Below are positions 28,077-42,518 of a stretch of 64,000 nt of DNA, piece after piece. Positions within the stretch are counted from its first letter, which is position 1, and the number at the start of each line of letters is the position of its first letter. The notes under the pieces are model-generated. The model ran no database searches. It was given only the letters and a program-made list of their open reading frames with translations, and was not told where the DNA came from. Position numbers and translations under genes: made by a program. The stretch is from the IMG/VR virus record IMGVR_UViG_3300045988_144682; one strand, given 5' to 3'. This stretch comes from a virus.

Positions 28077-29252
28077 ATGGAGAACATGATGAGTGAATTA
28101 GATATGAACTGGGAAATTTTAGCGAATAAGGATTATGCATTTTTGACAGAAAGCCCCCTCTTAGGTAATAATATTCTTCTTTTGACTTTGGGCGGTTCTC
28201 ATGCATATGGAACGAATGTGGAAACGTCAGATATTGATGTTAGAGGAATTACTTATAATCCAGTTGATTCTCTGCTTGGGAACAGAGTTTTTGAGCAGTA
28301 CGAAGACGAAGCGACAGATACCGTTGTATATGGATTAAATAAAATGTTTAAGTTGTTATTGGAGTGTAACCCAAACACTATCGAGCAGCTTGGTTCTAAA
28401 CCAGAACATTATATTATTCTCAATGATGACGGTAAAAAGCTGATTGAAAACAGGAAAATCTTTCTTTCTAAAAGAGCGATTTATACTTTTGGCGGTTACG
28501 CAAATTCACAGTTACGCCGGTTGCAGAATGCGTTGGCAAGAGACAGTTATCCACAGGCAGAGAAAGAAAAACATATTCTTGGATCAATCAGAAGTGCAAT
28601 GAACAGTATTATTGAGAAATTCCATACAGTTAATGGAAAGTTGATTGAATATAATTTTGCCAATGACAATGGAAAAATGGTTCATGCATATAAGGAATAC
28701 AACCAAAAAATGCAAGAGATGGAACAGTTTAAGGACTTTGAGTATGGATCACTCAACCTTTACCCGGATAAATCCGATAGAGAGGGGATGGACGTTGAAA
28801 TCTATATGGACGCTTGCTTACATCATTATCCATTGAGAGATTACAAGGGTATCTGGAACGGTATGAATACTATCGTAAAAGATTACGAAAAACTGGGTAA
28901 GCGAAATACGAAGAAAGATGACATGCATCTTAATAAGCACGCACAACATTTAGTCAGACTGTATCTTATGTGTATTGACATTCTTACAAAAGAAGAAATC
29001 ATTACATATCGTGCCGATGAACATGATTTGCTTATGAGCATTAGAAATGGAGAGTTCCAGAAGCCGGAAGGTGGTTATCGCCCAGAATTCTTTGAACTGG
29101 TTGATGATTTGGAAAAGAAAATGAAAGATGCAGCAGAAAACACAAGTCTGCCGGATTGCCCAGATACAGAAGCAGCTTATGAAATGCTTGTGGAAATGAA
29201 CAAAAATCATATTCTGAAGATGGAGGATTATTATGACGGAAGCACATATTAA
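28077..29252 (+). CDS. Pol-beta-fold nucleotidyltransferase, RlaP-type (RNA-repair associated)
   Basis: 391 aa. LLLTLGGSHAYGTNVETSDIDVRGI is the GS..YG...SD.D signature of this nucleotidyltransferase family. Confidence 0.65.
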   Translation: MENMMSELDMNWEILANKDYAFLTESPLLGNNILLLTLGGSHAYGTNVETSDIDVRGITYNPVDSLLGNRVFEQYEDEATDTVVYGLNKMFKLLLECNPNTIEQLGSKPEHYIILNDDGKKLIENRKIFLSKRAIYTFGGYANSQLRRLQNALARDSYPQAEKEKHILGSIRSAMNSIIEKFHTVNGKLIEYNFANDNGKMVHAYKEYNQKMQEMEQFKDFEYGSLNLYPDKSDREGMDVEIYMDACLHHYPLRDYKGIWNGMNTIVKDYEKLGKRNTKKDDMHLNKHAQHLVRLYLMCIDILTKEEIITYRADEHDLLMSIRNGEFQKPEGGYRPEFFELVDDLEKKMKDAAENTSLPDCPDTEAAYEMLVEMNKNHILKMEDYYDGSTY

Positions 29253-29640
29253 AGAAGCAACAAAAATGTTAGGTTGGTTCTTCGATAGATGCGGTAAAGT
29301 TCCGCACTATAAGGGAATGATGTACGTGAAAAACGCCGATAACTTAAAGGTATTACTTGATTCTGTTGTTGGTCGGATTGAGAAAGAAAATTCACAGCAG
29401 ATTGAGAAAATCTATAATGAAGAAAATTCATATACGGTACATTTCAAGAACGGAAGTCATTTCTCTTTTGTGGTTGTTGATACAGTGGTAGTAGTTGGAG
29501 AACATTGCCATGTACTGTTTGTGGACAGTAAAATCAGAGAACTTGAATTGAGAAGCCTTGCGCCGGTAATTGATCCGTGTACAATGCCGGAAGGAAATGT
29601 AATGCTTAATCCGAAACCACTTTATTTGAGTATGGATTAA
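29233..29640 (+). CDS. hypothetical protein
   Basis: 135-aa ORF that overlaps the upstream gene end. Confidence 0.55.
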   Translation: MTEAHIKEATKMLGWFFDRCGKVPHYKGMMYVKNADNLKVLLDSVVGRIEKENSQQIEKIYNEENSYTVHFKNGSHFSFVVVDTVVVVGEHCHVLFVDSKIRELELRSLAPVIDPCTMPEGNVMLNPKPLYLSMD

Positions 29641-29650
29641 GGAGAAAGCA

Positions 29651-30001
29651 ATGCAGATAGATAGAATTAAATATACAATGAAACATAGAAAAGCGTTCCG
29701 AGCAGTTGAAAAACAATTGCTCGGACACAATACAATTCGTGGTTACTTGCACGACCTGGATAAAGTGTTTCTGTATATGATTATGGACTATAAGCGTGCC
29801 CATAAGACACATAGAAGCCATTCTAGACACCACACTTTGAAAGCAAGGACACATGCGGATTATGTACAAATGGTTATAGACTGGGAATGTGCCAGACTTA
29901 CAAAGCCGGACAAGCAGATGAATGCCAGAGAAACACTGGATAAGCTATATCCTGAGTTAAAAGATAAGGTTTTGCCGGTAATTGAAGAACTTGGATTATA
30001 A
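29651..30001 (+). CDS. hypothetical His-rich protein
   Basis: 116 aa with AAGGAGA RBS. Contains HDLDK...HKTHRSHSRHH. Confidence 0.55.
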   Translation: MQIDRIKYTMKHRKAFRAVEKQLLGHNTIRGYLHDLDKVFLYMIMDYKRAHKTHRSHSRHHTLKARTHADYVQMVIDWECARLTKPDKQMNARETLDKLYPELKDKVLPVIEELGL

Positions 30002-30092
30002 CCAGATAAAAAGTAAATTTTATTTAGAAATAAGTGCTATATATTGTATTTTGAGATAGTTATTATACCATATATAGTATATATGTGGAGGA

Positions 30093-31013
30093 ATGATTAT
30101 GGTATTACCGATTGTGGTAAATACAGATAGGAAAATTGCCATTGATAAATCAGAATATAATCATGGTATGGAAAATGGGTTATTTCTGACAGAAGATGGT
30201 TCGCTTGGCATAAAAAGAAAAAATGGTGAGTGTTTTGATTTGTACGGAAAAGAACTGAATGTATCTGGGGAGATGGGATATAAATGTTATGTAGAAGGTG
30301 GAATTAAAGGTATTGGTATTGAAGGTCAAACTAGAGAAAGTTGGTGTGGCGATAAAATGTCAACACATTCTGGATATGGAGTAATGACTATAACACGCCA
30401 ACAAGTAAATCCACCTACAGCATTGTTCGGTAGTTCAATTAAGCATGGAAATGTTATCAATGTTACTGTTTCTCATGCAGATTTAAAACGTGGAATAAAT
30501 CACGACTGGTATCATGCCAATGGAAGAATATGTGAAATTGAATTATCTTTATCTCAATTTGCAGATATGATTACATCTATTGGAAATGGCGATGGTGTTC
30601 CTTGTACTATCCATTTTACAGAACGTGACGGATATATTCCACAAATTGATTATGAAAGCAAGATTGAACAGCATCGTGGTGAATTCAAGGATCAGTTGTC
30701 AGATGTTAAAAGTTCGATTAAAAATGCGTATGATATAGCTGAAGAATTATTTTCATCGAAGAAAACATTGAATAAAGCAGATAAGCAGAAAATTTTAGAT
30801 GTATTGGCAAAAGCAAATAGAGATATTGGTTGCAATGCCGAATATGCTCTTGATTGTTTCAATGAACAGATGGAAAAATCAGTAACAGAAGCTAGAGGCG
30901 AAATCGAAGCATTTATGCAGAATCAGATTCAAAATATAGCAATGAAAGCTATTGGAACGAATGTTGATGAAAACGGATTGCCGGATTTCAATAAGATGAT
31001 TGCAATAGAATAG
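30093..31013 (+). CDS. hypothetical protein
   Basis: 306-aa ORF with GGAGGA RBS. Confidence 0.6.
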   Translation: MIMVLPIVVNTDRKIAIDKSEYNHGMENGLFLTEDGSLGIKRKNGECFDLYGKELNVSGEMGYKCYVEGGIKGIGIEGQTRESWCGDKMSTHSGYGVMTITRQQVNPPTALFGSSIKHGNVINVTVSHADLKRGINHDWYHANGRICEIELSLSQFADMITSIGNGDGVPCTIHFTERDGYIPQIDYESKIEQHRGEFKDQLSDVKSSIKNAYDIAEELFSSKKTLNKADKQKILDVLAKANRDIGCNAEYALDCFNEQMEKSVTEARGEIEAFMQNQIQNIAMKAIGTNVDENGLPDFNKMIAIE

Positions 31014-31020
31014 GAGAAAT

Positions 31021-31260
31021 ATGAGTGTAATAATTGGAAATAGAAATTATATAAGAAATGCAGTCATTGGAGATAATGGAGAATCTATACAAAATATTGA
31101 AAATGACGGAATTATTATTGATGGGAAAAAGATTCCACCATGCCCAACGCCGATGAACAACTGTACGATTATTGATAACCATGTATTCATAGATGGATAT
31201 GAATGGAAAAATAGTAAATGGAAGAAAACTCTCAGAGCTTTATATCATAAATATTTTTAA
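31021..31260 (+). CDS. hypothetical protein
   Basis: 79-aa ORF with AGGAGA RBS. Confidence 0.5.
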   Translation: MSVIIGNRNYIRNAVIGDNGESIQNIENDGIIIDGKKIPPCPTPMNNCTIIDNHVFIDGYEWKNSKWKKTLRALYHKYF

Positions 31261-31276
31261 CATGATGGAGGAAGAT

Positions 31277-31843
31277 ATGAATAAACCATATGATGTAGGA
31301 TTTATTTGCGGACGTTTCCAAACGTTCCACAAAGGACATGAAAAATTAGTTGAAACTGGGTTAATGCTTTGTGACAGACTTTTAATTTTTATTGGAAGTT
31401 CTCAGGAAGACGGAACAGAAAGAAATCCGTTCAACATTACAACCAGAGAAAAAATGTTAAAAGAGATATACGGTGGGCGTGACGATATCATGATTTACGG
31501 CTTACCAGACTTAACCACTGAAAATGATATTACTCCGGCGTGGGGAAGTTATCTACTGGATAAGGTAGACAGATATATTTATAAGAAGCCGGATATTATG
31601 ATTTATGGGAATGATGAGAGTAGATCTGCCTGGTTCTCCAAAGAAGACCTTAAAGGAATGACAGAGCTTATTATCAATCGTTCAGATTTGCCGATTTCTG
31701 CCACAATGGTAAGAGATTATATGGTTCACGATCAGAGAAAAGAATGGATGCAACTTGTAAATCCAAAACTTCATAAGATGTATGATGAATTGCGTATGCA
31801 GCTTATGTCCGTTGAATACTACAAAAAAGTAGCGGAGGTATAA
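31277..31843 (+). CDS. nicotinamide/nicotinate mononucleotide adenylyltransferase (NadM/NadR-type)
   Basis: ATG at 31277 after GGAGGA (the track ORF starts at 31193). GFICGRFQTFHKGHEKLV is the (H/T)xGH cytidylyltransferase-fold motif in the GRFQPFH form. C-terminal ISATMVR. Confidence 0.8.
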   Translation: MNKPYDVGFICGRFQTFHKGHEKLVETGLMLCDRLLIFIGSSQEDGTERNPFNITTREKMLKEIYGGRDDIMIYGLPDLTTENDITPAWGSYLLDKVDRYIYKKPDIMIYGNDESRSAWFSKEDLKGMTELIINRSDLPISATMVRDYMVHDQRKEWMQLVNPKLHKMYDELRMQLMSVEYYKKVAEV

Positions 31844-31845
31844 AA

Positions 31846-32250
31846 TTGAAAATTTGTCAAAAATTTCATTTAAAACAGATGTATCATGAGATAACATTTT
31901 ATGCTTATGATATAGAGAAGATTGAGAAAATAACACCATATAATTTATCAAGGATATATGTGCCGGAATGCGCAGATAGAGCCAATAAAAGGTGTGATTT
32001 TTGGAAAGTAAAAGAGGTTTGTTGTCAATGTTGCGCTCCGCATTTACAAGAATTACTTTTAGATGGTTGGTATGTAGGGGATAAAAATGGATTTTTGACA
32101 GATGATTCATATTATGCTCTGTTACAGACAGGGATTAGAGTTCCCGTAAATAAAGAAATATATAGGGAATGGAAAAAAGGTTGGTCTTCCAAACCATCAA
32201 CACAAGATGATAAAGTGTATGAGTTAGGAGTAGATTATGAAAAGAAATAG
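31846..32250 (+). CDS. hypothetical Cys-rich protein
   Basis: TTG start after GGAGG. 134 aa. Confidence 0.5.
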   Translation: MKICQKFHLKQMYHEITFYAYDIEKIEKITPYNLSRIYVPECADRANKRCDFWKVKEVCCQCCAPHLQELLLDGWYVGDKNGFLTDDSYYALLQTGIRVPVNKEIYREWKKGWSSKPSTQDDKVYELGVDYEKK

Positions 32251-32527
32251 CCAGTTTTGGCATTTGAAATTTGCCGATGATTACGATAAATCAAAGGAAA
32301 CATTCCGGGAATACAGATGTAATCATGAGTTATATTACGACCATGACAAGAAAATGTGGGTACATCGTGCAGAATATACAGGCAGTTGGTATCCAGCAAC
32401 ATTCCCTTGTGGAAGTTATAAAGCTGCATTACGACATTTGAGAAAGCATGATGAGATACCAAAGGGTACACGATTTGTTTTAGTTAGTCGTTTTGTTGGT
32501 GGTGATAGAGTTTTAATGAAGAGGTAG
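32237..32527 (+). CDS. hypothetical protein
   Basis: 96-aa ORF with AGGAG RBS. Confidence 0.55.
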   Translation: MKRNSQFWHLKFADDYDKSKETFREYRCNHELYYDHDKKMWVHRAEYTGSWYPATFPCGSYKAALRHLRKHDEIPKGTRFVLVSRFVGGDRVLMKR

Positions 32528-32530
32528 AAC

Positions 32531-32902
32531 ATGAGAACGAATGATATTTTATTAGACGGATTTAATGATATCCGCACACTTCAAAGATATCTTTATATGT
32601 CAGATGAACATTATATTGAGATAGAAAATGTTATTGGAGTGAAACTGAGAATTAGAATGGGAGAAAACTTACATTATTATTGTAAGAACATGAATTTCCC
32701 AGATTTGCCAGATGCATGTTTTTCGGAATCAATGACGAATAAAACTATGTTAGGTATTATTGACCAGTTGAAAGAGAATCCGGCAACTGAATATCCAAAC
32801 AGTTTTAAGAATAGATGGGATGAGATAGTATCAATAACATCTGCAAACGTAGCTCAGAACGAATATAAATGGGCGAATGGAAGATACAGAGGGAGTGTGT
32901 AA
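32531..32902 (+). CDS. hypothetical protein
   Basis: 123-aa ORF. Confidence 0.55.
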   Translation: MRTNDILLDGFNDIRTLQRYLYMSDEHYIEIENVIGVKLRIRMGENLHYYCKNMNFPDLPDACFSESMTNKTMLGIIDQLKENPATEYPNSFKNRWDEIVSITSANVAQNEYKWANGRYRGSV

Positions 32903-32903
32903 G

Positions 32904-36970: not shown

Positions 36971-36998
36971 TTGACATTTTCCTGAAATATGGTATTAT
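36971..36998 (+). promoter_or_regulatory. sigA-type promoter driving the RNA array
   Basis: TTGACA at 36971-36976, 16-nt spacer, TGgTATTAT at 36990-36998. Confidence 0.6.
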
Positions 36999-37024
36999 AT
37001 AATTGTTCAAAGGAACAGAGAAAA

Positions 37025-37082
37025 ACACTGGAAAAGCTAATAAGGTAGCTTAAGAAAATAGGTTCGATTCCTAATCCATGTG
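37025..37082 (+). ncRNA. D-armless mini tRNA-like element (unit 0)
   Basis: Hand fold. Acceptor ACA(C)TGGA/TCCATGT has one bulge. Single hairpin AAGCT-AATAAGGT-AGCTT. T arm (A)TAGG-TTCGATT-CCTA(A). Confidence 0.35.
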
Positions 37083-37085
37083 ATC

Positions 37086-37152
37086 GACATTTCGGGGCTT
37101 ATCTCCGTGAAAAAGTTGTGTTTGTTTGTAGAACGGACAACTCCGAAATGTC
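37086..37152 (+). ncRNA. long imperfect hairpin RNA
   Basis: GACATTTCGGGG at 37086-37097 pairs with CTCCGAAATGTC at 37141-37152. An inner TCCGT/ACGGA helix is present. Confidence 0.35.
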
Positions 37153-37186
37153 TTTAAAAATAATATAAACAAGCAATAATAAATGA

Positions 37187-37304
37187 GCTGATGTAGTTCA
37201 ACTGGTAGAACATTTGATTATGAAAAATGCACTTCGTACAATAAGTGCTAACAGCAATAGCAAAGCCACTCAAACAGTTGTTGGTTCGAGTCCAACCGTC
37301 AGCA
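37187..37304 (+). tRNA. tRNA-scaffold gene with 52-nt anticodon-loop region (unit A)
   Basis: Acceptor GCTGATG/CGTCAGC. D arm GTTC-AACTGGTA-GAAC. Stem TTTGA (37213-17) / TCAAA (37270-74). Variable CAGTT. T arm GTTGG-TTCGAGT-CCAAC. The insert holds hairpin GCACTT/AAGTGC followed by ACAGCAAT (37251-58). Confidence 0.55.
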
Positions 37305-37425
37305 TTCGGCAGAAATGCCATAAATGTATGAGAAAGACACATGCAGCAAATTCAAAAGGATAAAGCAAAACTCTACAAGTTTAGTGAAGTGGTTCAAATC
37401 CACAAAAATGAAGTGTCTTGAAAAT
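37305..37425 (+). ncRNA. structured RNA, paralog of the 40246-40330 element (unit B)
   Basis: CAGAAATGCC (37310-19). AAGACAC (37334-40) followed by AT-GCAGCAAAT. An AAACT-CTACA-AGTTT hairpin. T-arm-like GTGG-TTCAAAT-CCAC. GTGTCTT (37413-19) is complementary to AAGACAC. Confidence 0.4.
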
Positions 37426-37433
37426 GTGAATAT

Positions 37434-37549
37434 GGGAGTGATCCGGCGGTGCTTTTTAAGGCGCATCGGGTGGAGAGCGCATACAGCAATTTTACATAAA
37501 AGGAAACTCTTCAAAAGTTTTAGTTACGGTTCGACTCCGTACACTCCCA
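37434..37549 (+). tRNA. tRNA-like gene with intact UCA anticodon arm and extra sequence around the D arm (unit C)
   Basis: Acceptor GGGAGTG/CACTCCC. D-arm-like GCGC-ATCGGGTGGAGA-GCGC (37461-80) followed by AT-ACAGCAAT. Anticodon arm AAACT-CTTCAAA-AGTTT (37504-20, anticodon TCA at 37511-13). T arm TACGG-TTCGACT-CCGTA. Confidence 0.55.
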
Positions 37550-37570
37550 CAATTCCACCAATTAAAAAAT

Positions 37571-37706
37571 GGGTAAGTGGCGAAATAGGCACACGCAACG
37601 GCAATTTTTATACACATGTGTTTAGTTGACAAACACATACAGCAATTTATTTAAGTAGAAGAAATCAGGAAGCCGTGTCTTGCAGGTTCGAGTCCTGTCT
37701 TACCCG
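37571..37706 (+). tRNA. tRNA-scaffold gene with 69-nt anticodon-loop region (unit D)
   Basis: Acceptor GGGTAAG/CTTACCC. Leu-like D arm TG-GCG-AAATAGGCACA-CGC. Stem ACGGC (37598-602) / GCCGT (37672-76). T arm GCAGG-TTCGAGT-CCTGT. Insert hairpin ATGTGTTT-AGTTGAC-AAACACAT followed by ACAGCAAT (37639-46). Confidence 0.55.
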
Positions 37707-37862
37707 TTAGCACCATGAAAGTATGCAACTTTGTTTAGTTGGAAATGAAAGAATATCGCACCACAAGAATCGTATGTTTTGTGTGATTAAATGTAGCGAA
37801 AAGGTATCGTGAAAGGCTAATCCATTGGAGGTCGTGCATGGCTTCGCTTTATGGTGCAACCA

Positions 37863-37936
37863 GGATCATTAGCTCAGTTGGTTAGAGCATCCGGCTCATA
37901 ACCGGGCGGTCACTGGTTCGAGTCCAGTATGATCCA
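37863..37936 (+). tRNA. tRNA with CAT anticodon (Met, or Ile2 if lysidinylated)
   Basis: Canonical cloverleaf GGATCAT-TA-GCTC-AGTTGGTTA-GAGC-A-TCCGG-CTCATAA-CCGGG-CGGTC-ACTGG-TTCGAGT-CCAGT-ATGATCC-A. No CCA is encoded. Confidence 0.9.
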
Positions 37937-38068
37937 TTTGAGCAATTTCAAACGCTCAACATTTTGATTTTTGTAGCTTGGTTTTAGCGAAAGCTGTGGA
38001 AACTATCTGTAAAATAGGGAGATAGTGTGTCTCATATGTGAGGTTTGTATGAGAAAAATTAAATATTT

Positions 38069-38194
38069 GCCACCGTAGCTCAACTAGATAGAGCAACGTA
38101 AATCGAAAAACGTGTCTAGTATTAGACACAGACAGCAATTTTTCAAGATAGCATGTTAAGCCGTAGGTTATAGGTTCGACTCCTATCGGTGGCG
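38069..38194 (+). tRNA. tRNA-scaffold gene with about 74 nt replacing the anticodon arm (unit F)
   Basis: Acceptor GCCACCG/CGGTGGC. D arm GCTC-AACTAGATA-GAGC. T arm ATAGG-TTCGACT-CCTAT. Internal hairpin GTGTCT-AGTATT-AGACAC followed by AG-ACAGCAAT (38132-39). No clean anticodon stem found. Confidence 0.5.
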
Positions 38195-38197
38195 TTG

Positions 38198-38332
38198 GCG
38201 AGAGTATGCAAGAGGCTTAAGCAAATGATACAAAAATGTGCTTAGTTCTAGCACACACAGCAAAATTCTCAGAAGAAAACATTGATTCAAAATTGTAAGT
38301 TGAATTCGTGGGTTCAAATCCCACCTCTCGCC
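38198..38332 (+). tRNA. class-II-like tRNA-scaffold gene with insert (unit G)
   Basis: Acceptor GCGAGAG/CTCTCGC. Ser/Leu-like D arm TGC-AAGAGGCTTAA-GCA. T arm GTGGG-TTCAAAT-CCCAC. Long arm ATTCAA-AATTGTAAG-TTGAAT. Hairpin GTGCT-TAGTTCT-AGCAC followed by AC-ACAGCAAA (38257-64). Confidence 0.5.
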
Positions 38333-38333
38333 C

Positions 38334-38418
38334 TGGTGAAATGGTAATGGATTAGAATGGCAGCAATTCATATAGTTCCCCTGTAAAAACAAGGTTGCCA
38401 CTGATTCTTGCCACACCA
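38334..38418 (+). ncRNA. small structured RNA without T arm (unit H)
   Basis: TGGTG (38334-38) / CACCA (38414-18) closing helix. Contains CAGCAAT (38361-67). Has GGCAG/TTGCC internal pairing. Confidence 0.3.
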
Positions 38419-38421
38419 TAA

Positions 38422-38557
38422 GCGTATGTAGCTCAGTAGGTTAGAGCGTCCACAAAAATTTTATAGAGCCTTGTATAAGGCTTGAACCGCAAATATTTTT
38501 AAAGAATTTGAAATTGAGGAAGGTGGAAGGTCACAAGTTCAAGTCTTGTCATACGCA
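38422..38557 (+). tRNA. tRNA-scaffold gene with 69-nt anticodon-loop region (unit I)
   Basis: Acceptor GCGTATG/CATACGC. D arm GCTC-AGTAGGTTA-GAGC. Stem TCCAC (38449-53) / GTGGA (38523-27). Variable AGGTC. T arm ACAAG-TTCAAGT-CTTGT. Insert hairpin AGCCTT-GTAT-AAGGCT followed by TGAA-CCGCAAAT. Confidence 0.55.
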
Positions 38558-38651
38558 CTTATTCTAATTTTTATATACTTACAGCATAATCAAACAATAA
38601 TAAAGTATGTAGGAATTATGAAATATAATTCAAAATTAGGAGGAATTGAAC

Positions 38652-40205
38652 ATGGGTTTCATGAATTCAATGAAAAGTACGTTGAATGAAGATTTCAACG
38701 AAAGCTACACAGAAAACGGCGCACTTGGATATAGAACAACAGGTAAACACTTGCTTGATTTGAATTTCAAGGTCGCATCTCTGAGAAAAGCTGATGCAGA
38801 AACAATCATTTCTGGATTCGATAAAGCGTTTTCAGAAGACCATATTCACGCACTCAAATGGTTATTCTATTTGCGTGATGCGAGAGAAGGTCTGGGGGAA
38901 CGTAGATCATTCAGAATCATCATGTCTCATTTGGCAAATGTTGAGCCGGAAATCAGTAAAGTGCTGATTGGTTTAATCGCTGAATACGGACGTAGTGATG
39001 ATCTTCTCTCCCTGTTAGGTACAGAGTGTGAAAAAGACACACTGGAACTTATCAAAAATCAGCTAATGAAAGATTTAGAAGCAAAAAAAGCGAACAAACC
39101 AGTATCATTGTTTGCTAAGTGGTTGCCAAGTTGTAATGCAACTTCCCACAAAACAAGAGAAAATGCTGCAGTAATTCGTAAGTATTTGGGATTCACAGAA
39201 AGACAATATCGTAAGATTCTTTCGGAACTGAGAGAGTATATTGATGTTGTTGAAAGAAAGATGTCTGCTAAGAAATGGGGCGAAATCAATTACGAAGCCG
39301 TTCCGTCAAAAGCAAATCTTATTTACAACAATGCATTCCTCAAAAACGATGAGGAACGCAGACGAGAGTATCTGGATAAGCTGGAAAAGGGAGAGGCGAA
39401 AATCAACTCTTCTACAAACTTCCCACATGATATCGTACATAGTTATCTGAAAGGTCGTAGCTATTACAGATCCAATATAAAAGAGAACAAAGCTCTGGAA
39501 GCATTATGGAAAGCACTTCCTGATACAGTACAGGGTGATGGAAATACTCTTGTTGTCAGAGATGGTTCTGGAAGTATGATGTGTAGTGTTGATCCAAACA
39601 GCAGCATTACTGCACTGGAAGTCGCAACAGCACTTGCTATTTACTTCTCTGAGAGATGTTCTGGCGAATTCAAAGATAACTTTATCACATTCAGTTCAAG
39701 ACCTGAGTTGATTGATCTTTCAGCGTGTAGTTCACTGGCAGAAAAAATCAGAAGATGTTATGCAGAAAATGACTGTTCTAACACAGACATTGAAAAAACA
39801 TTTGATCTTATTCTGCAGACAGCTATCAATACTAATATGAAACAGGAAGACATGCCAAAGAATATCCTGATTATCAGTGATATGGAATTTGACCAGGCAA
39901 CCTATTCATATGGATGGGGAGGTAGCGCAAGCACAGTAAATGAAACACTGTTCAAGACAATTGGCAGAAAATTTGAGAAAGCTGGATATCAGCTTCCGAG
40001 ACTTGTGTTCTGGAATGTAAACTCACGTACCGGCACAATCCCTGTCAAGGAAAACGCTTTGGGTGTTGCTCTTGTAAGTGGATTCTCAGTCAATGTTGCG
40101 AAAATGGTATTAAGCGGAGAACTTGATCCGTATAAATGTCTGATTGAGCAGCTTGACACAGAGAGATATGCACCGATTGAGGCAGCAATCAAAGATTTAA
40201 AATAA
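38652..40205 (+). CDS. vWA-domain protein of the DUF2828 / TROVE (Ro60)-like architecture
   Basis: ATG at 38652 after AGGAGGA. A helical N-terminal about 300 aa beginning ..YTENGALGY.TTGK.LLDLNF. C-terminal vWA with MIDAS VVRDGSGSM and ISDMEFD. The family assignment is from memory. Confidence 0.6.
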   Translation: MGFMNSMKSTLNEDFNESYTENGALGYRTTGKHLLDLNFKVASLRKADAETIISGFDKAFSEDHIHALKWLFYLRDAREGLGERRSFRIIMSHLANVEPEISKVLIGLIAEYGRSDDLLSLLGTECEKDTLELIKNQLMKDLEAKKANKPVSLFAKWLPSCNATSHKTRENAAVIRKYLGFTERQYRKILSELREYIDVVERKMSAKKWGEINYEAVPSKANLIYNNAFLKNDEERRREYLDKLEKGEAKINSSTNFPHDIVHSYLKGRSYYRSNIKENKALEALWKALPDTVQGDGNTLVVRDGSGSMMCSVDPNSSITALEVATALAIYFSERCSGEFKDNFITFSSRPELIDLSACSSLAEKIRRCYAENDCSNTDIEKTFDLILQTAINTNMKQEDMPKNILIISDMEFDQATYSYGWGGSASTVNETLFKTIGRKFEKAGYQLPRLVFWNVNSRTGTIPVKENALGVALVSGFSVNVAKMVLSGELDPYKCLIEQLDTERYAPIEAAIKDLK

Positions 40206-40245
40206 AACAACTTCATACGTGGCAAAACAACCAAAGTAAAAAGTA

Positions 40246-40330
40246 CAGAAATGCCTTGTAAGACACGTACAGCAAATAATAATGCAATCAACTTTTAATT
40301 GATAACCGCAAACTAAGTGTCTTGAAGAAC
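40246..40330 (+). ncRNA. structured RNA, paralog of unit B (unit J)
   Basis: CAGAAATGCC (40246-55). AAGACAC (40260-66) followed by GT-ACAGCAAAT (40269-77). Inner hairpin ATCAA-CTTTTAA-TTGAT. GTGTCTT (40317-23) followed by GAAG. Followed by a strong terminator. Confidence 0.45.
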
Positions 40331-40344
40331 GTATATTCCATAAT

Positions 40345-40391
40345 GGTTAGACGAAGTGGCAGTGGTTGTAAGCACTTCTTCTAACCTTTTT
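40345..40391 (+). terminator. Rho-independent terminator
   Basis: GGTTAGACGAAGTG / CACTTCTTCTAACC: a 14-bp stem with one mismatch, followed by TTTTT. Confidence 0.75.
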
Positions 40392-40422
40392 GAATAGATA
40401 TTTTTCAACATAGAGGTTATAC

Positions 40423-41517
40423 ATGAGAAAGTTAGCAACAATTCGTGAAATCGCAGAAATCAAGCCGATTCCTGATGCTGACAGAATCGAAGTAGCAAGA
40501 ATTGATGGTTGGGAAGTTGTCGTGTCAAAGAAAGACAATTTTCATGTTGGCGATAGAGTGGTATATGTCGAGATTGACAGTAAGATGCCGGAAACGCCAG
40601 AGTATGAATTCTTGAAATCAAGAAAGTATGTTGTAAAGACTATCGTAATGAGAGGACAGGTTTCACAAGGATTAGTGATGCCGTTATCCATTCTTCCGGT
40701 AGGTGAATACAAACTTGGTCAGGATGTTACGGATGTCTTAGGAATCATTAAGTATGATCCACAGCTTGAAGAAGAAAATGCGGTTTTCGAGGAAAACAGA
40801 AAGAAAACCAGGAATCCAGTTGTGAAATTTTTAATGAGATATGCATGGTTCAGAAAAATCTATCTCAAGAAGAATACGCACACAGAGTTTCCAAACTTTA
40901 TTAAAAAGACAGATGAAGAAAGAATTCAGAATATGCCTGAGTTATACGAAAGGCTGAAGAATGAACAAACCAATCTGATAGTGACAGAAAAAGTTGACGG
41001 ATGTTCCGGCACTTATTTTTTACGCAAAATTCCGAGAAAATTCGGAAAAGCGAAGTACGAATTCGGAGTTTGCAGCAGAAATAGGAGATTGCCACAGCCG
41101 GATAACAGCTACTATTGGAAAATCGCCAACAAATACAAAATTCGCAGCGTTCTTGAAAAATTGATAGACGATGAGGATTATATAGTATTACAAGGCGAAA
41201 TTACTGGTGCAAAAATCCAGGGAAACAAATATCATGAGAAAGATTGCCAGTTATGGGCATTCAACCTCATAGCCCCCTCAAAGAAATATAATACCATTGA
41301 GATGCAAGACATTCTCATTAAGCATGGTATTCATACAGTACCAATTGTTGAGATTGGTTACAATGTAAAAGGTGATATACAAGATATTGTAAAGTATGTG
41401 AAAGGCAAGTCACAAATTGTAGATAGGGAAAGAGAAGGATGTGTTTTTAGAAATACTGATAAGAATATCAGTTTCAAATGTATTAACCCAAACTTCTTAA
41501 TCAAGAATAATGAGTAG
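40423..41517 (+). CDS. ATP-dependent RNA ligase (Rnl5/DraRnl-like, N-terminal OB-type extension)
   Basis: 364 aa. The N-terminus MRKLATIREI.EIKPIPDADRIEVA.IDGW.VV is typical of this ligase clade. Nucleotidyl-lysine motif TEKVDG. Confidence 0.72.
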   Translation: MRKLATIREIAEIKPIPDADRIEVARIDGWEVVVSKKDNFHVGDRVVYVEIDSKMPETPEYEFLKSRKYVVKTIVMRGQVSQGLVMPLSILPVGEYKLGQDVTDVLGIIKYDPQLEEENAVFEENRKKTRNPVVKFLMRYAWFRKIYLKKNTHTEFPNFIKKTDEERIQNMPELYERLKNEQTNLIVTEKVDGCSGTYFLRKIPRKFGKAKYEFGVCSRNRRLPQPDNSYYWKIANKYKIRSVLEKLIDDEDYIVLQGEITGAKIQGNKYHEKDCQLWAFNLIAPSKKYNTIEMQDILIKHGIHTVPIVEIGYNVKGDIQDIVKYVKGKSQIVDREREGCVFRNTDKNISFKCINPNFLIKNNE

Positions 41518-41612
41518 CCTTGAAAATATAATATCTTTTGCAATATGTCTTCTTGTTTTGGTCGTGTGTTTACGATTCTTAATTGTAGAAACACGGGAAG
41601 CAAGAAAATTTT

Positions 41613-42518
41613 ATGGGAAGGGAAATGAGAATGGATCGGAGCAGTATTGGTACGAGAATGAAATCTTATGAAGATGCTCAGAAAACGTACTTAACAAGAA
41701 GAATGCCAGTAATGATTAGAGTGGATGGAAATGCTTTTCATACATTCACCAGAGGTTTTGAAAGACCTTTTGACAGCATTATGGCAGAATCAATGCAGCG
41801 CACAATGAAATATATGTGCGAAAACATTTCTGGATGTGTCTTAGGATATACACAGAGCGATGAAATCACATTACTTCTGATTGATTACAAGAAAAAGAAT
41901 CAGGGAGCATGGTTTGGATATGTAAAGCGAAAGGTAGAAACTATCGCAGCGAGTATGGCAACAATGGCTTTCAATGAGGCTTTTTCAGATGTAATTACGG
42001 AAAAGATATCAGAAGACATTATGAAAGTTCAGAATGATGAAGAAGCCGAAAAAGTAAAGGATTACTATTTCAAATATGTAAAGAAATGTGGAAGGGCAAT
42101 GTTTGATGCTAGAGCATTTAATATCCCAGAATTTGAAGTAGTCAATGAATTTATTTGGAGGCAGCAGGATTGTACAAGAAATTCAATTCAGTCAGTTGGT
42201 CATGCAAATTTTTCAGATAAGAAAATGCATAAGAAAAATATGAGTCAGATTCAAGACATGCTCATGTTGAAGAAAGGAATCAACTGGAATGATTTTCCGA
42301 CTTTTCTGAAAAGAGGATCTTGTTGTATCAAAGAAGATTATTTCATTCCAGAAAATGAGCTTCCAGAAAATCACAGAAACAATTTATCCCCACGGACATT
42401 AGATCCAGAAGAAGATGAATATGGTGTGTGGAGATCACGTTGGGTTATCGACAAAGAAATTCCAATTTTCACACAGAACAAAAACTATGTTAATAATTTG
42501 TTTTTAAACAAGTATTAA
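41613..42518 (+). CDS. Thg1-like protein (tRNA 3'-5' nucleotidyltransferase/5'-end repair)
   Basis: 301 aa. RMKSYE....YL.RRMPVMIRVDGNAFHTFTRGFERPFD and GYTQSDEITLLL. The start may be the ATG at 41631. Confidence 0.82.
   Translation: MGREMRMDRSSIGTRMKSYEDAQKTYLTRRMPVMIRVDGNAFHTFTRGFERPFDSIMAESMQRTMKYMCENISGCVLGYTQSDEITLLLIDYKKKNQGAWFGYVKRKVETIAASMATMAFNEAFSDVITEKISEDIMKVQNDEEAEKVKDYYFKYVKKCGRAMFDARAFNIPEFEVVNEFIWRQQDCTRNSIQSVGHANFSDKKMHKKNMSQIQDMLMLKKGINWNDFPTFLKRGSCCIKEDYFIPENELPENHRNNLSPRTLDPEEDEYGVWRSRWVIDKEIPIFTQNKNYVNNLFLNKY

What the first reader, a model, noticed from the sequence alone, without database searches (positions are those of the whole stretch)
28077..42518. Dispersed RNA-repair / tRNA-maintenance toolkit surrounding the RNA array
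Within 14 kb the phage encodes:
- an RlaP-type Pol-beta nucleotidyltransferase (28077-29252);
- a CCA-adding enzyme (32904-34136);
- a Ro60/DUF2828-like vWA protein (38652-40205);
- an Rnl5/DraRnl-like ATP-dependent RNA ligase (40423-41517);
- a Thg1-like 3'-5' polymerase (41613-42518).

A tmRNA (11992-12370) and a calcineurin-like phosphoesterase (19664-20422) lie further upstream; the phosphoesterase could heal 2',3'-cyclic phosphate ends.

Comparative-genomics work on RNA-repair systems links exactly these families as counter-measures to tRNA-targeting toxins such as anticodon nucleases. Together they could repair the 3' end (CCA), the 5' end (Thg1-like) and internal nicks (ligase).

What is new here is their co-occurrence with insert-bearing tRNA scaffolds. 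The repair enzymes may double as a maturation pathway for the phage's own RNAs.
Basis: partly seen in the sequence, partly recalled or inferred. Interest (0 to 1): 0.7.

Follow-up and report, generated by a model that had tools for sequence, protein, structure and literature searches.

The report
Phage tRNA-repair kit with Ro-like RNP
A large gut-bacterial phage carries a conserved set of enzymes that can rebuild broken tRNA ends, arranged around a Ro60-like protein and a cluster of small tRNA-like RNAs that all share one sequence box and look like that protein's own partner RNAs.

Summary
All five protein calls hold: RlaP, a class II CCA-adding enzyme, a DUF2828/DUF7788 protein with a Ro60-like predicted fold, a DraRnl/NgrRnl-type (Rnl5) RNA ligase, and a bacterial-type Thg1-like polymerase with all three catalytic carboxylates. 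The tmRNA and the metallophosphoesterase are also real.

The genes are not loosely scattered. Relatives at 65-71% identity keep the order RlaP..CCA..[DndB-like + MrpR-like]..RNA array..DUF2828-ligase-Thg1.

As a kind, this kit is already described for jumbo phages.

The less expected part is the RNA array. Its "inserts" are a shared module, a 7-bp helix followed by NN-ACAGCAAU, present in about 10 copies here. This box tracks DUF2828 genes:
- It occurs in 64 of 69 genome loci chosen by the protein alone.
- Its density is about 27 times background in the 500 nt upstream of the gene, on the same strand only.
- It also occurs in Felix O1, Bacillus phage MrDarsey and mycobacteriophage LeBron.
- Rfam has no family for it.

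Many copies enclose T-arm or anticodon-loop mimics.

The array is therefore best read as Y-RNA-like partners of the Ro-like protein, not as tRNAs awaiting splicing. No polynucleotide kinase is present, so only 3'-OH/5'-P breaks can be sealed directly.

The parts
28077..29252 (+). RlaP-family Pol-beta nucleotidyltransferase, predicted to add 1-2 NMP to RNA 3'-OH ends
   Evidence: Pfam PF10127 at 63.5 bits. PHROG 388 at 3.4e-52. G39-G40-S41, D52xD54 and D81 seen by inspection. Biochemistry of the family is in PMC12776372.
32904..34136 (+). Class II tRNA nucleotidyltransferase, most likely CCA-adding
   Evidence: Motifs GGCVRD...DWD, RRDFTINA and EDPLRILRAIRF are present.
36971..36998 (+). Sigma-70-like promoter (TTGACA, 16-nt spacer, TG-n-TATTAT) in front of the RNA array
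   Evidence: Matches 11 of 12 consensus positions and has an extended -10 element; lies in an intergenic gap. This is a consensus match only, not evidence of function.
37187..37304 (+). tRNA-like scaffold RNA U1. The anticodon loop is replaced by a hairpin plus an ACAGCAAU box at 37251.
   Evidence: Rfam tRNA 57.8 bits with a 49-nt insert. Perfect 7-bp acceptor stem, no encoded CCA.
37332..37423 (+). Free-standing box RNA: AAGACAC-AU-GCAGCAAA ... T-arm ... GUGUCUU-G
   Evidence: Covariance model R1 scores 24.5 bits, E 0.005. Sequence read.
37434..37549 (+). Scaffold RNA U2: acceptor stem and T-arm only, box at 37483, internal 5-bp stem with 7-nt loop CUUCAAA
   Evidence: z = -2.9. Orthologs in L135 and L137.
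37571..37706 (+). Scaffold RNA U3: acceptor stem and T-arm, box at 37639
   Evidence: R1 scores 23 bits, E 0.011.
37863..37936 (+). Canonical tRNA-Met(CAU). G1-C72 pair, so elongator or Ile2 type, not initiator.
   Evidence: ARAGORN and Rfam 71 bits.
38069..38194 (+). tRNA-like scaffold RNA U5 with a 63-nt insert: hairpin GUGUCUA/UAGACAC plus box at 38132
   Evidence: Rfam tRNA 44.6 bits. Fold z = -4.5. Compensatory changes in the hairpin, acceptor stem and T-arm among orthologs.
38198..38332 (+). Scaffold RNA U6: acceptor stem and T-arm, box ACAGCAAA at 38257
   Evidence: R1 scores 18.5 bits.
38422..38557 (+). tRNA-like scaffold RNA U7 with a 69-nt insert and variant box ACCGCAAA at 38486
   Evidence: Rfam tRNA 53.8 bits. 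R1 scores 25.7 bits, E 0.003.
38570..38613 (+). Short variant box element (ACAGCAUA) about 30 nt upstream of the DUF2828 ribosome-binding site. Weak evidence.
   Evidence: R1 scores 11.8 bits, E 3.4. Sequence.
38652..40205 (+). Ro60-like protein of the DUF2828/DUF7788 family: alpha-helical TROVE-like domain plus a vWA domain with MIDAS motif D304-G-S306-G-S308
   Evidence: Pfam. PHROG 850 'RNA-binding protein' at 1.7e-139. AlphaFold2 model, pLDDT 76. The only full-length Foldseek matches are Ro60 structures: 9kop 5.5e-9, 1yvr 8e-6, 2nvo 4.6e-5.
40258..40327 (+). Free-standing box RNA between DUF2828 and the ligase: AAGACAC-GU-ACAGCAAA ... AUCAA-CUUUUAA-UUGAU ... GUGUCUU-G. The internal hairpin mimics a Lys(UUU) anticodon stem-loop.
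   Evidence: Sequence. R1 scores 52.9 bits (this copy is a seed member). Orthologs in L135 and L137.
40423..41517 (+). Rnl5-type ATP-dependent RNA ligase (N-terminal OB domain plus nucleotidyltransferase domain; motif I K190-V-D-G)
41613..42518 (+). Bacterial-type Thg1-like 3'-5' polymerase (TLP) with D38, D83 and E84
   Evidence: The residues map to BtTLP D30, D75 and E76 (PMC3701042).
11992..12373 (+). Phage tmRNA (tag AEELRMVA*). Same theme, but outside the conserved module.
19664..20422 (+). Calcineurin-type metallophosphoesterase. Any link to RNA end healing is only conjecture.

Best explanation
The window holds a conserved early-region module of a lineage of large (roughly 130-190 kb), probably temperate Clostridia phages. 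It combines a Ro60-like ribonucleoprotein with enzymes that rebuild RNA ends.

Layout:
- A promoter-like site at 36971 precedes an array of one tRNA-Met and about nine small RNAs. Each small RNA carries the same module: a 7-bp helix whose strand (A/U)AGRCNC is followed by NN-ACAGCAAU.
- Six of these RNAs are built on a tRNA-like acceptor/T-arm scaffold without an encoded CCA.
- The array runs into the gene for a DUF2828/DUF7788 protein with a Ro60-like fold. One more box RNA follows, carrying a Lys-type anticodon-loop mimic. Then come an Rnl5 RNA ligase and a Thg1-like 3'-5' polymerase.
- A class II CCA-adding enzyme and an RlaP nucleotidyltransferase lie upstream on the same strand.

Proposed mechanism (inferred, not shown):
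- The box RNAs are released from the array by host RNase P and RNase Z. The scaffold forms may then receive CCA.
- The RNAs bind the Ro-like protein through the helix plus ACAGCAAU box, as Y RNAs bind Ro60. They display tRNA-part mimics: a T-arm, an anticodon stem-loop or a whole tRNA-like body.
- The resulting particle acts as a decoy or scaffold for tRNA-targeting nucleases and for the repair enzymes.
- CCA-adding enzyme restores 3' ends, the TLP restores 5' ends, RlaP replaces a nucleotide lost at a break, and Rnl5 seals 3'-OH/5'-P nicks.
- With no kinase present, the kit suits breaks left by metal-dependent tRNases (Toprim AriB, HNH PtuB, PIN VapC) rather than HEPN-type cyclic-phosphate breaks.

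Shown here: the protein families and catalytic motifs, the conserved gene order, the RNA box with its helix, and the box-DUF2828 association.
Inferred: RNA-protein binding, RNA processing, and the counter-defence role.
For: Families and motifs. The TLP carboxylates map to BtTLP residues.

Ro60-like fold: the AlphaFold2 model matches only Ro60/TROVE structures over its full length.

Gene order conserved at 65-71% identity. In L135, RlaP and CCA are separated by a single 101-aa ORF.

The box is concentrated in the array:
- Four of the five exact ACAGCAAT copies in 64 kb lie within the 1.7-kb array.
- About 10 copies are found when variants are counted.
- Covariance model R1, run over the whole window with filters off, places its five best matches (all those with E below 0.2) in 37332-40325 on the + strand.

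The helix is real:
- 246 downstream plus 63 upstream perfectly complementary 7-nt arms among 579 box instances, against 57 plus 12 at random positions.
- A G that was not selected for follows the 3' arm in 84% of cases.
- 46 cells show changes on both sides of a pair, against 10.7 in shuffles.

Box-DUF2828 link:
- A DNA pattern search using only the box plus a T-arm returned 120 viral loci, of which 47 encode a DUF2828 homolog (median 39.5% identity). Box copies outside the gene were 237 on the same strand against 31 on the opposite strand, and they peak within 500 nt upstream.
- Among 80 genome loci chosen by protein alone, 69 have a box within -2000 to +500 nt of the gene. Density is 2.71 per kb in the 500 nt upstream, against about 0.1 per kb in the background.
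- Among 69 loci with enough upstream sequence: 39 have a box only, 25 have a box plus a tRNA, none has a tRNA only, and 5 have neither.
- The same arrangement occurs in the cultured phages Felix O1, LeBron and MrDarsey.
- In LeBron one box RNA is a weak Rfam YrlA match (39.8 bits, E 8e-6), with the box sitting where YrlA has its Ro-binding motif.

tRNA-part mimics: 149 of 362 free-standing box elements contain a hairpin of at least 5 bp with a YUNNNRN loop, against 14 after shuffling. These are T-loops or CUUUUAA, CUGUUAA, CUUGAAA and similar loops.

Other repair genes recur near DUF2828 elsewhere: kinase-HD in 9 of 44 loci, Band-7 in 6 of 44, and Rnl5 plus kinase-HD together in L210. L013 has kinase-HD, Band-7 and RlaP.

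Precedents from the literature:
- YrlA being cut by RNase P and given CCA (PMC4201824).
- AriB leaving 3'-OH/5'-P ends (PMC12409363).
Against: - No expression, binding or activity data exist for any part.
- The DUF2828 model has only moderate confidence (pLDDT 76), and its TM-scores to Ro60 structures are 0.37-0.59.
- The window's RNAs do not match Rfam YrlA even at E up to 10. They have unpermuted tRNA topology, unlike YrlA.
- RlaP and CCA lie 9 and 4.5 kb from the core. They are separated from it by NAD-salvage genes and a DndB-like/MrpR-like pair, so co-regulation is not shown.
- Outside this lineage, RlaP, CCA and TLP are not found within 6 kb of DUF2828. The enzymatic kit and the RNP are therefore separable modules.
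- No kinase or proven 3'-phosphatase is present, so repair of classical anticodon-nuclease breaks is incomplete.
- Several unit folds are not better than shuffled sequence (z = -1.1 to -1.3 for U1 and U3).
- The helix statistics start from instances selected for complementarity, so the percentage paired is partly circular.
Confidence: 0.6

Rival explanations
1. One reading: the insert-bearing tRNA scaffolds are precursors. Their inserts are cut out, and the halves are rejoined by the phage ligase, with Thg1 and CCA trimming the ends. The repair kit would then double as a splicing-like maturation pathway that makes functional phage tRNAs.
For: - U1, U5 and U7 match the tRNA model on both sides of an insert that sits exactly in the anticodon loop.
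- A ligase and two end-rebuilding enzymes are adjacent to the array.
- U1's insert is preceded by UUAUGAA, which looks like a complete anticodon loop.
Against: - The inserts are not idiosyncratic introns but copies of one conserved box module. That module also occurs free-standing (37332-37423, 40258-40327) and, in other phages, between ordinary tRNAs or inside YrlA-like permuted RNAs.
- U2, U3 and U6 lack a D-arm and anticodon stem, so they could not become tRNAs.
- U5 and U7 have no U33-type loop remnant.
- Across 44 full-flank DUF2828 loci with box RNAs, Rnl5 is nearby in 3 and TLP in 1.
- No candidate splicing endonuclease was found.
Confidence: 0.08
2. There is no functional unit. The five genes are independent accessory genes that happen to sit in the same early, accessory-rich region, among NAD salvage, TerD, kinase/PP2C and lysogeny genes. 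The RNA array would be an ordinary degenerate tRNA cluster.
For: - The genes are interleaved with unrelated functions.
- Outside the lineage the enzymes do not travel with DUF2828.
- Each family occurs alone in many phages: TLP in 161 cultured phage records and DUF2828 in 711.
Against: - The order RlaP..CCA..array..DUF2828-ligase-TLP is kept at 65-71% identity while the intervening cargo changes.
- DUF2828, ligase and TLP are contiguous.
- The box-DUF2828 association is far above background.
- Other DUF2828 loci carry different repair enzymes (kinase-HD, Band-7, Rnl5), which is the modular pattern described for RNA-repair systems.
Confidence: 0.15
3. The ACAGCAAU helix is a cis-acting signal rather than a protein's partner RNA. 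It could be an endoribonuclease processing site that punctuates polycistronic tRNA/sRNA transcripts, or a 5'-leader operator that controls DUF2828 translation.
For: - Copies sit exactly between tRNAs in Felix O1, L021 and L085.
- Density peaks in the 500 nt before the DUF2828 start codon.
- One weak copy lies about 30 nt before the ribosome-binding site in the window.
Against: - 39 of 69 DUF2828 loci have box copies but no canonical tRNA nearby, so the box is not a general tRNA-array spacer.
- Up to 10 copies per locus, each with its own cargo (T-arm, anticodon-loop mimic or tRNA-like body), points to trans-acting RNAs.
- An autoregulatory leader would still imply that the protein binds the box.
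Confidence: 0.15
4. The Ro-like particle works in RNA decay rather than repair. As in Deinococcus and Thermus phage phiLo, the RNA would tether the Ro-like protein to host PNPase or another exonuclease to degrade structured host RNAs. The neighbouring enzymes would serve the phage's own tRNA supply independently.
For: - Ro60/Y RNA/PNPase complexes are the only experimentally established bacterial and phage Ro function (PMC4201824 and PMC12135203).
- LeBron gp53 is toxic when overexpressed (PMC13148394).
Against: - DUF2828 is repeatedly linked to ligases, kinase-HD, Band-7 and RlaP.
- The cargo modules mimic tRNA parts rather than a PNPase-binding loop.
- Neither point excludes decay.
Confidence: 0.2

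Closest known systems
Jumbo-phage RNA-repair complements (Iyer, Anantharaman, Krishnan, Burroughs & Aravind 2021, PMC7824862, section 3.4.9; builds on Burroughs & Aravind 2016)
   Same: The component list matches: phage tRNAs, ATP-dependent RNA ligase, RlaP, CCA-adding enzyme, sporadic Thg1, a ROT/TROVE protein with a tRNA-like partner, and NAD+ salvage genes in the same genome.
   Different: - This phage is a temperate-looking Clostridia phage rather than a surveyed jumbo phage.
- The ligase is Rnl5-type, not Rnl1, Rnl2 or RtcB.
- No kinase or phosphatase accompanies the ligase.
- The Ro-like protein belongs to the DUF2828/DUF7788 family.
- Its RNA partners, the box and the scaffolds are not described there.
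Salmonella rsr-yrlBA-rtcBA operon and bacterial/phage Ro60-YrlA loci (PMC4201824, PMC7790460, PMC12135203)
   Same: - A Ro-fold protein is encoded next to same-strand tRNA-like non-coding RNAs and an RNA ligase.
- The RNAs have a terminal helix with a short conserved motif on the 5' strand.
- tRNA mimicry is present, and RNase P and CCA processing have been shown for YrlA.
   Different: - The protein does not hit Pfam TROVE, and its sequence link to a TROVE structure is only E 0.045.
- The motif is ACAGCAAU, not GNCGAAN0-1G.
- The window's RNAs are not detected by Rfam YrlA.
- The topology is an unpermuted tRNA with the module in the anticodon loop, or a simple stem-loop, rather than the permuted YrlA layout.
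- There are many copies per locus.
- The ligase is ATP-dependent Rnl5, not RtcB.
Phage T4 Pnkp + Rnl1 (+ NrdC.11 RlaP) tRNA repair against PrrC
   Same: A phage-encoded ligase plus RlaP restores cleaved tRNA.
   Different: The window has no polynucleotide kinase-phosphatase, so cyclic-phosphate/5'-OH breaks cannot be healed by the genes seen here. It adds CCA and 3'-5' polymerase functions that T4 lacks.
DraRnl / NgrRnl (Rnl5) RNA ligases
   Same: N-terminal OB domain plus nucleotidyltransferase domain. Passes the NCBIfam equivalog cutoff. Matches NgrRnl at 4e-38, with the KxDG motif aligned.
   Different: Phage-encoded. About 25 extra residues lie between the two domains. Activity is untested.
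Bacterial Thg1-like proteins (BtTLP, 4kgk)
   Same: Match at 2.8e-58. E20, R36, D38, D83 and E84 are conserved. BtTLP functions in 5'-end repair.
   Different: About 33 residues (128-160) are inserted relative to BtTLP, and the C-terminus is longer. TLPs are already annotated in 161 cultured phage records.

Membership tests
RlaP (PF10127) | Profile match above the curated cutoff | tested here: met
   63.5 bits against 23. The match covers only the N-terminal nucleotidyltransferase half of the profile (positions 19-141 of 249).
RlaP (PF10127) | Pol-beta motif hG[GS] plus three catalytic aspartates | tested here: met
   G39-G40-S41, D52-I-D54 and D81, by inspection. PMC12776372 reports three strictly conserved aspartates. 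The third Asp is assigned by position only.
RlaP (PF10127) | Gene neighbourhood with an RNA ligase | tested here: inconclusive
   The ligase is 11 kb downstream here and about 8 kb away in L135. The two share a conserved module but are not adjacent.
RlaP (PF10127) | Adds 1-2 NMP to the RNA 3'-OH | not testable with these tools
   A biochemical property (PMC12776372).
Class II CCA-adding enzyme | PolyA_pol head domain plus RNA-binding domains; motifs A (GGxVRD..DxD), B (RRD) and D (EDxxR) | tested here: met
Class II CCA-adding enzyme | NCBIfam equivalog NF009814 cutoff | tested here: inconclusive
   283.2 bits against a cutoff of 290, with a full-length match. This still scores well above the poly(A) polymerase and A-adding models.
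Class II CCA-adding enzyme | Specificity for CCA rather than A-only, CC-only or poly(A) | not testable with these tools
   The best solved relatives are CCA-adding enzymes (3e-48), ahead of PcnB (1e-30) and the Aquifex A-adding enzyme (3e-16).
Rnl5 / DraRnl RNA ligase | NCBIfam equivalog TIGR02306 above cutoff | tested here: met
   157.9 bits against 151.15.
Rnl5 / DraRnl RNA ligase | N-terminal OB domain preceding the nucleotidyltransferase domain; motif I lysine | tested here: met
   PF21189 at residues 4-88 and PF09414 at 185-353. K190-V-D-G aligns with the NgrRnl KLDG motif.
Rnl5 / DraRnl RNA ligase | Seals 3'-OH/5'-P nicks with an RNA 3'-OH strand | not testable with these tools
   A biochemical property.
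Thg1-like protein (bacterial TLP) | Thg1 domain and three metal-binding carboxylates | tested here: met
   PF04446 at 93.3 bits. D38, D83 and E84 correspond to BtTLP D30, D75 and E76.
Thg1-like protein (bacterial TLP) | Closer to TLPs than to eukaryotic G-1-adding Thg1 | tested here: met
   BtTLP at 2.8e-58, against Candida and human Thg1 at 4e-10 and 6e-6.
Ro60 / TROVE | Sequence membership in the Pfam TROVE family | tested here: not met
   Only DUF2828 and DUF7788 hit. The sequence match to a TROVE structure is E 0.045 and is confined to the vWA MIDAS region.
Ro60 / TROVE | Fold: alpha-helical repeat domain capped by a vWA domain with MIDAS | tested here: met
   The only full-length Foldseek matches are 9kop, 1yvr and 2nvo (E 5.5e-9 to 4.6e-5; TM 0.37-0.59). 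The MIDAS motif DGSGS is present. Model pLDDT is 76, so this is fold-level evidence only.
Ro60 / TROVE | Same-strand non-coding RNA partners encoded within a few kb | tested here: met
   Actual binding was not tested.
YrlA Y RNA (Rfam RF02553) | Covariance-model match; GNCGAAN0-1G motif; permuted tRNA-like domain | tested here: not met
   No hit in the window array at E up to 10. A related LeBron RNA reaches only 39.8 bits against a gathering score of 69. The box is ACAGCAAU.
tRNA (RF00005) for the scaffold RNAs | Cloverleaf with a 7-nt anticodon loop | tested here: not met
   The acceptor, D-arm and T-arm match, but the anticodon loop is replaced by 49-69 nt. U2, U3 and U6 lack the D-arm and anticodon arm.
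T4-type healing-and-sealing pathway | Polynucleotide 5'-kinase plus 3'-phosphatase/CPDase alongside the ligase | tested here: not met
   No P-loop kinase other than DnaB in the window, and no homolog of the L013 kinase-HD protein. The metallophosphoesterase is unlinked to the module. The rest of the phage genome was not seen.
tmRNA (RF00023) | Covariance-model match above the gathering score, plus a tag reading frame | tested here: met
   80.2 bits against 47; tag AEELRMVA*.

The most novel reading that the evidence does not exclude
DUF2828/DUF7788 proteins and the 'helix + ACAGCAAU' RNAs form a widespread, so far undescribed class of phage ribonucleoprotein. It would be a second, phage-centred branch of the Ro60/Y-RNA world, present from Felix O1 and Listeria/Staphylococcus/Bacillus phages to mycobacteriophages and thousands of gut prophages. 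Its interchangeable RNA cargo (T-arm, anticodon stem-loop mimics such as Lys-UUU and Asn-GUU, or whole tRNA-like bodies) would bait or block host tRNA-targeting immune nucleases and hand damaged tRNAs to co-encoded repair enzymes.
Probability: 0.3. Interest if true: 0.85.

Novelty: new variant of a known kind. Interest (0 to 1): 0.68.

Why it matters
tRNAs are now recognised as a main target of bacterial anti-phage immunity (PrrC, PARIS, retron-PtuAB, Cas13, VapC). Apart from T4 Pnkp/Rnl1 and phage-encoded spare tRNAs, phage countermeasures are mostly predictions.

This locus offers:
- A compact and conserved combination of four end-rebuilding enzymes, all of which work on 3'-OH/5'-P ends.
- A sequence-defined RNA partner candidate for a protein family found in at least 711 cultured phage genomes and more than 8000 protein clusters. 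This makes the function of Ro-like proteins testable in tractable systems: Felix O1 in Salmonella, LeBron in M. smegmatis, and MrDarsey in B. anthracis Sterne.

It may also explain some of the unannotated gaps and degenerate tRNAs seen in phage tRNA clusters.

Tried and rejected
- Megablast of the 15-kb region against 50,697 phage records found no close relative.
- Rfam at gathering and E-value thresholds found only tRNA and tmRNA in the window. Known ribozymes, YrlA and the large ornate phage RNAs are therefore not the explanation for the inserts.
- I first read the inserts as possible introns. I dropped this once the same box turned up free-standing and next to DUF2828 in unrelated phages.
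- I looked for a polynucleotide kinase, Band-7 protein or kinase-HD protein in the window using phmmer and a P-loop scan. None was found.
- I looked for RlaP, CCA, Rnl5 and TLP near distant DUF2828 genes with tblastn and phmmer. They are mostly absent within the 4-6 kb flanks. I did not run Pfam on those neighbours.
- 34639-35958 was suspected to belong to the kit, but it resembles DndB-like DNA-sulfur-modification-associated proteins. Its partner is an MrpR-like repressor or recombinase. I treat both as unrelated.
- The Burroughs & Aravind 2016 paper could not be retrieved. What I say about it rests on the 2021 paper that cites it and on memory.
- Literature searches for DUF2828, DUF7788, Ro-like and anticodon-loop decoys found no description of the box.
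- The pairing of ACAGC with a downstream GCAUGU predicted in U5 orthologs is invariant, and it is broken in L045. I did not pursue it.
- The 156-nt RNA before tRNA-Met folds no better than shuffled sequence.

Full report
OBSERVATION

- 28077-29252 is an RlaP nucleotidyltransferase: Pfam PF10127 at 63.5 bits against a cutoff of 23, and PHROG 388 at 3.4e-52. It has G39-G40-S41, D52xD54 and D81.
- 32904-34136 is a class II tRNA nucleotidyltransferase. Pfam finds the PolyA_pol head domain at 2e-36 plus two C-terminal domains. Its best solved relatives are the CCA-adding enzymes 6ibp and 1miv, at 3e-48 and 4e-47, ahead of poly(A) polymerase and the A-adding enzymes. The NCBIfam CCA equivalog scores 283 bits, just under its cutoff of 290.
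- 38652-40205 is a DUF2828 + DUF7788 protein.
- 40423-41517 has an N-terminal PHA02142 OB domain and an RNA_ligase domain. It matches Naegleria NgrRnl at 4e-38 with the KxDG lysine aligned. It passes the NCBIfam equivalog for the Deinococcus DRB0094 ligase, 157.9 bits against 151.15. It is therefore an Rnl5-type RNA ligase, not a DNA ligase or capping enzyme.
- 41613-42518 is a Thg1-like protein. It is much closer to the Bacillus thuringiensis TLP (2.8e-58) than to eukaryotic Thg1. D38, D83 and E84 correspond to the catalytic D30, D75 and E76 of BtTLP (PMC3701042).

The tmRNA is also real. The metallophosphoesterase has all five active-site motifs, but it lies 8 kb from RlaP, outside the stretch whose gene order I could check in relatives.

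IS THE CLUSTERING MEANINGFUL?

DUF2828 homologs at 65%, 69% and 71% identity (L135, L137, L139) sit in the same order. That order is TerD..RlaP..CCA..[a 440-aa PHROG 5732 protein + an MrpR-like protein]..a 1.4-1.7 kb non-coding gap..DUF2828-ligase-Thg1.

In L135, RlaP and CCA are separated by a single 101-aa ORF. The eight genes at 29233-32902 in the window, including an NMNAT-like gene, are therefore lineage-specific cargo inserted into an older module.

The 440-aa protein resembles DndB-like DNA-sulfur-modification-associated proteins. Its partner resembles the SPbeta repressor MrpR. I do not count either as part of the kit.

Relatives of the DUF2828 protein occur as integrated prophages in cultured Clostridia, for example Clostridiales bacterium CCNA10 and Dysosmobacter segnis. 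Together with an integrase and the MrpR-like gene in the window, this suggests a temperate phage of Lachnospiraceae or Oscillospiraceae-type hosts.

HOW NEW IS THE PROTEIN KIT?

It is not new in kind. A comparative study of jumbo phages already lists phage tRNAs, RNA ligases, RlaP, CCA-adding enzyme, sporadic Thg1 and a ROT/TROVE protein with a tRNA-like partner as one counter-defence toolkit, alongside NAD+ salvage (PMC7824862).

- RlaP has since been shown to add one or two nucleotides to damaged RNA 3' ends (PMC12776372).
- Thg1-like genes are annotated in 161 cultured phage records.
- DUF2828 homologs occur in 711 cultured phage records, some annotated 'Ro-like RNA binding protein'.

THE RO-LIKE PROTEIN

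By sequence the protein barely touches TROVE: E 0.045, and only at the MIDAS region. An AlphaFold2 model (pLDDT 76, pTM 0.66) tells more. Its only full-length Foldseek matches are the Thermus phage Ro60 (9kop, E 5.5e-9, TM 0.54/0.59), Xenopus Ro (1yvr) and Deinococcus Rsr (2nvo). Everything else aligns only to the vWA domain.

THE RNA ARRAY

Between 36971 and 38640 there are several elements:
- one canonical tRNA-Met;
- six RNAs with perfect 7-bp acceptor stems and T-arms (37187-37304, 37434-37549, 37571-37706, 38069-38194, 38198-38332, 38422-38557), none encoding CCA;
- further free-standing elements.

Three of the six RNAs match the tRNA model, with 49-69 nt replacing the anticodon loop.

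Reading the inserts side by side shows a shared module. A short helix has one strand reading (A/U)AGRCNC, and this strand is followed by two nucleotides and then ACAGCAAU.

- Four of the five exact ACAGCAAT copies in the 64-kb window lie in this 1.7-kb stretch.
- With variants there are about ten copies. One is a free-standing stem-loop at 40258-40327, between DUF2828 and the ligase.

THE BOX BELONGS WITH DUF2828

A DNA pattern containing only the box and a T-arm was searched against viral contigs and returned 120 loci.
- 47 of these, in flanks averaging 8 kb, encode a DUF2828 homolog of median 39.5% identity.
- Box copies outside the gene were 237 on the gene's strand and 31 on the other.
- They peak in the 500 nt upstream of the start codon.

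The reverse test used 80 bacterial and MAG loci picked by protein similarity alone.
- 69 have a same-strand box within -2000 to +500 nt of the gene.
- Density is 2.71 per kb just upstream, against about 0.1 per kb in the background and on the opposite strand.
- Of 69 loci with enough upstream sequence, 39 have a box but no canonical tRNA, 25 have both, none has a tRNA only, and 5 have neither.

The box therefore follows the protein, not tRNA arrays.

The same arrangement occurs in cultured phages:
- Felix O1 has four box stem-loops between the tRNAs after ORF86.
- Bacillus phage MrDarsey has five before gp219.
- Mycobacteriophage LeBron has three after gp53.

In LeBron one of these RNAs is a weak Rfam YrlA match (39.8 bits against a gathering score of 69; E 8e-6). 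Its GCAGCAAU box follows directly after the 5' strand of the terminal helix, which is where YrlA carries its presumed Ro-binding GNCGAA motif.

Rfam has no family for the box RNAs in the window, even at E up to 10. I found no paper describing them.

STRUCTURE OF THE BOX RNA

In the commonest form the arm before the box pairs with a complementary arm 17-129 nt downstream (median 65), which is followed by a G.
- Perfect 7-bp complements are found for 246 (downstream) plus 63 (upstream hairpin) of 579 box instances, against 57 plus 12 at random positions.
- The G after the 3' arm, which was not used in the selection, is present in 84%.
- In a 34-sequence alignment, 46 cells show changes on both sides of a pair, against 10.7 in shuffles.

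The percentage paired in that alignment is circular, because the instances were selected for pairing. The covariation count and the random-position control are not.

A covariance model built from that alignment was run over the whole window with filters off. Its five best matches, all those with E below 0.2, lie between 37332 and 40325 on the + strand. Orthologs of unit U5 show compensatory changes in the hairpin, acceptor stem and T-arm.

CARGO OF THE BOX RNAs

Inside the loops of 362 non-redundant free-standing elements, 149 contain a hairpin of at least 5 bp with a 7-nt YUNNNRN loop, against 14 after shuffling.
- 59 are T-loops.
- Most of the rest look like anticodon loops: CUUUUAA (Lys, 14), CUGUUAA (Asn, 11), CUUGAAA (8), CUGCUAA (7) and others.

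The window's element at 40258-40327 carries AUCAA-CUUUUAA-UUGAU. Relatives at 97% identity have CCGUUAA instead.

The box RNAs thus display parts of tRNAs, or in the window's scaffold forms almost whole tRNAs minus the anticodon loop.

MECHANISM

What is shown:
- the protein families and their catalytic residues;
- the conserved gene order;
- the box and its helix;
- the association of the box with DUF2828.

What I infer:
- The array is transcribed from the promoter-like site at 36971.
- The RNAs are released by host RNase P and RNase Z.
- The box RNAs bind the Ro-like protein as Y RNAs bind Ro60.
- The particle presents tRNA mimics to tRNA-binding enzymes.

For Salmonella YrlA, others have already suggested that the tRNA-like domain could act as a competitive inhibitor of an anticodon nuclease (PMC7790460). 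M. smegmatis YrlA is cut by RNase P and receives CCA (PMC4201824).

The four enzymes all act on 3'-OH or 5'-P ends:
- the CCA enzyme on 3' termini;
- the TLP on 5'-truncated acceptor stems;
- RlaP on a 3'-OH at a break;
- Rnl5 on 3'-OH/5'-P nicks.

The window encodes no polynucleotide kinase. More distant DUF2828 loci often carry a kinase-HD protein, and L210 has Rnl5 and kinase-HD side by side. As seen here, the kit therefore fits breaks left by metal-dependent tRNases such as PARIS AriB, which leaves 3'-OH and 5'-P on tRNA-Lys(UUU) (PMC12409363). It fits HEPN-type cyclic-phosphate breaks less well, unless a kinase lies elsewhere in the genome.

I find no support for it.
- The inserts are a shared protein-linked module, not introns.
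- Three scaffolds could never become tRNAs.
- Most phages with box RNAs lack the ligase and the TLP nearby.

VERDICT

It is overstated for the phosphoesterase and probably wrong about maturation.

- The protein kit is a new member of a known kind.
- The Ro-like protein with its ACAGCAAU-box RNAs is a new variant of the Ro60/Y-RNA theme. It appears widespread and undescribed, and it is directly testable in model phages.

Noticed in passing
window 5518-8491, 10108-10584, 31193-31843, 42551-43456, 57849-61487: A dispersed NAD+ set. It comprises NAPRTase, NAD synthase, a Nudix hydrolase, two macro domains, an NMNAT-like adenylyltransferase, a weak nicotinamidase-like protein, an NAD-dependent DNA ligase, and a WGR domain plus PARP-like ADP-ribosyltransferase. 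Together these look like a Preiss-Handler NAD+ reconstitution route plus ADP-ribose handling, interleaved with the RNA-repair genes.
   Followed up: partly
window 23691-25479 and 43468-47515: Three tandem TerD-domain proteins, and downstream of the Thg1-like gene a vWA-like protein, a PP2C phosphatase, a coiled-coil protein and a Ser/Thr kinase. This combination resembles Ter-type stress-response modules. The 42551-47515 block recurs next to DUF2828 in several unrelated viral contigs: L091, L105, L117, L124 and L128.
   Followed up: partly
window 11992-12373: The phage-encoded tmRNA has an unusually short tag, AEELRMVA*, without the usual ...LAA ending.
   Followed up: no
window 34639-36893: A translationally overlapping pair sits between the CCA gene and the RNA array in all close relatives. 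It comprises a 439-aa DGNHR-motif protein (PHROG 5732, DndB-like) and an MrpR-like tyrosine-recombinase-fold protein. It may be the lysogeny switch, and it might regulate the array promoter.
   Followed up: partly
window 37707-37862: The 156 nt just before tRNA-Met have no box. They form a 9-bp terminal helix and end in ...GGUGCAACCA immediately before the tRNA 5' end, so RNase P cleavage would leave an RNA with an encoded ACCA tail. The fold is no better than shuffled sequence (z = -1.1).
   Followed up: partly
window 40290-40306, compared with L001 and L004 at 11613-11680: The anticodon-like loop of the free-standing box RNA differs between phages that are about 97% identical in protein. It is CUUUUAA in the window, L002, L008 and L010, and CCGUUAA in L001 and L004. 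The flanking stem and box are unchanged. This could reflect rapid retargeting of the mimic.
   Followed up: no
L013 8137-9039, 14559-15608, 15750-16778; L210 2915-5030: More distant DUF2828 phages carry different repair partners. L013 has a P-loop kinase fused to an HD phosphohydrolase, an SPFH/Band-7 protein and RlaP. L210 has an Rnl5 ligase directly followed by the kinase-HD protein. LeBron likewise has a Band-7-like gp49, a polynucleotide kinase gp74 and an RNA ligase gp85.
   Followed up: partly
L219 (Salmonella phage Felix O1, record positions 23881-24700): The long-studied phage Felix O1 has four unannotated ACAGCAA stem-loops between its tRNA genes, just downstream of ORF86, which is its DUF2828 homolog. 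Several small ORFs of unknown function are annotated across this stretch.
   Followed up: partly
window 20825-23458, 14033-15010, 2761-3924: Other unusual cargo was seen. There is an 877-aa protein that looks like a P-type cation ATPase, judged by reading the sequence only. There is also a FolD-type methylene-THF dehydrogenase/cyclohydrolase and a GmrSD_N/DUF262-like protein.
   Followed up: no
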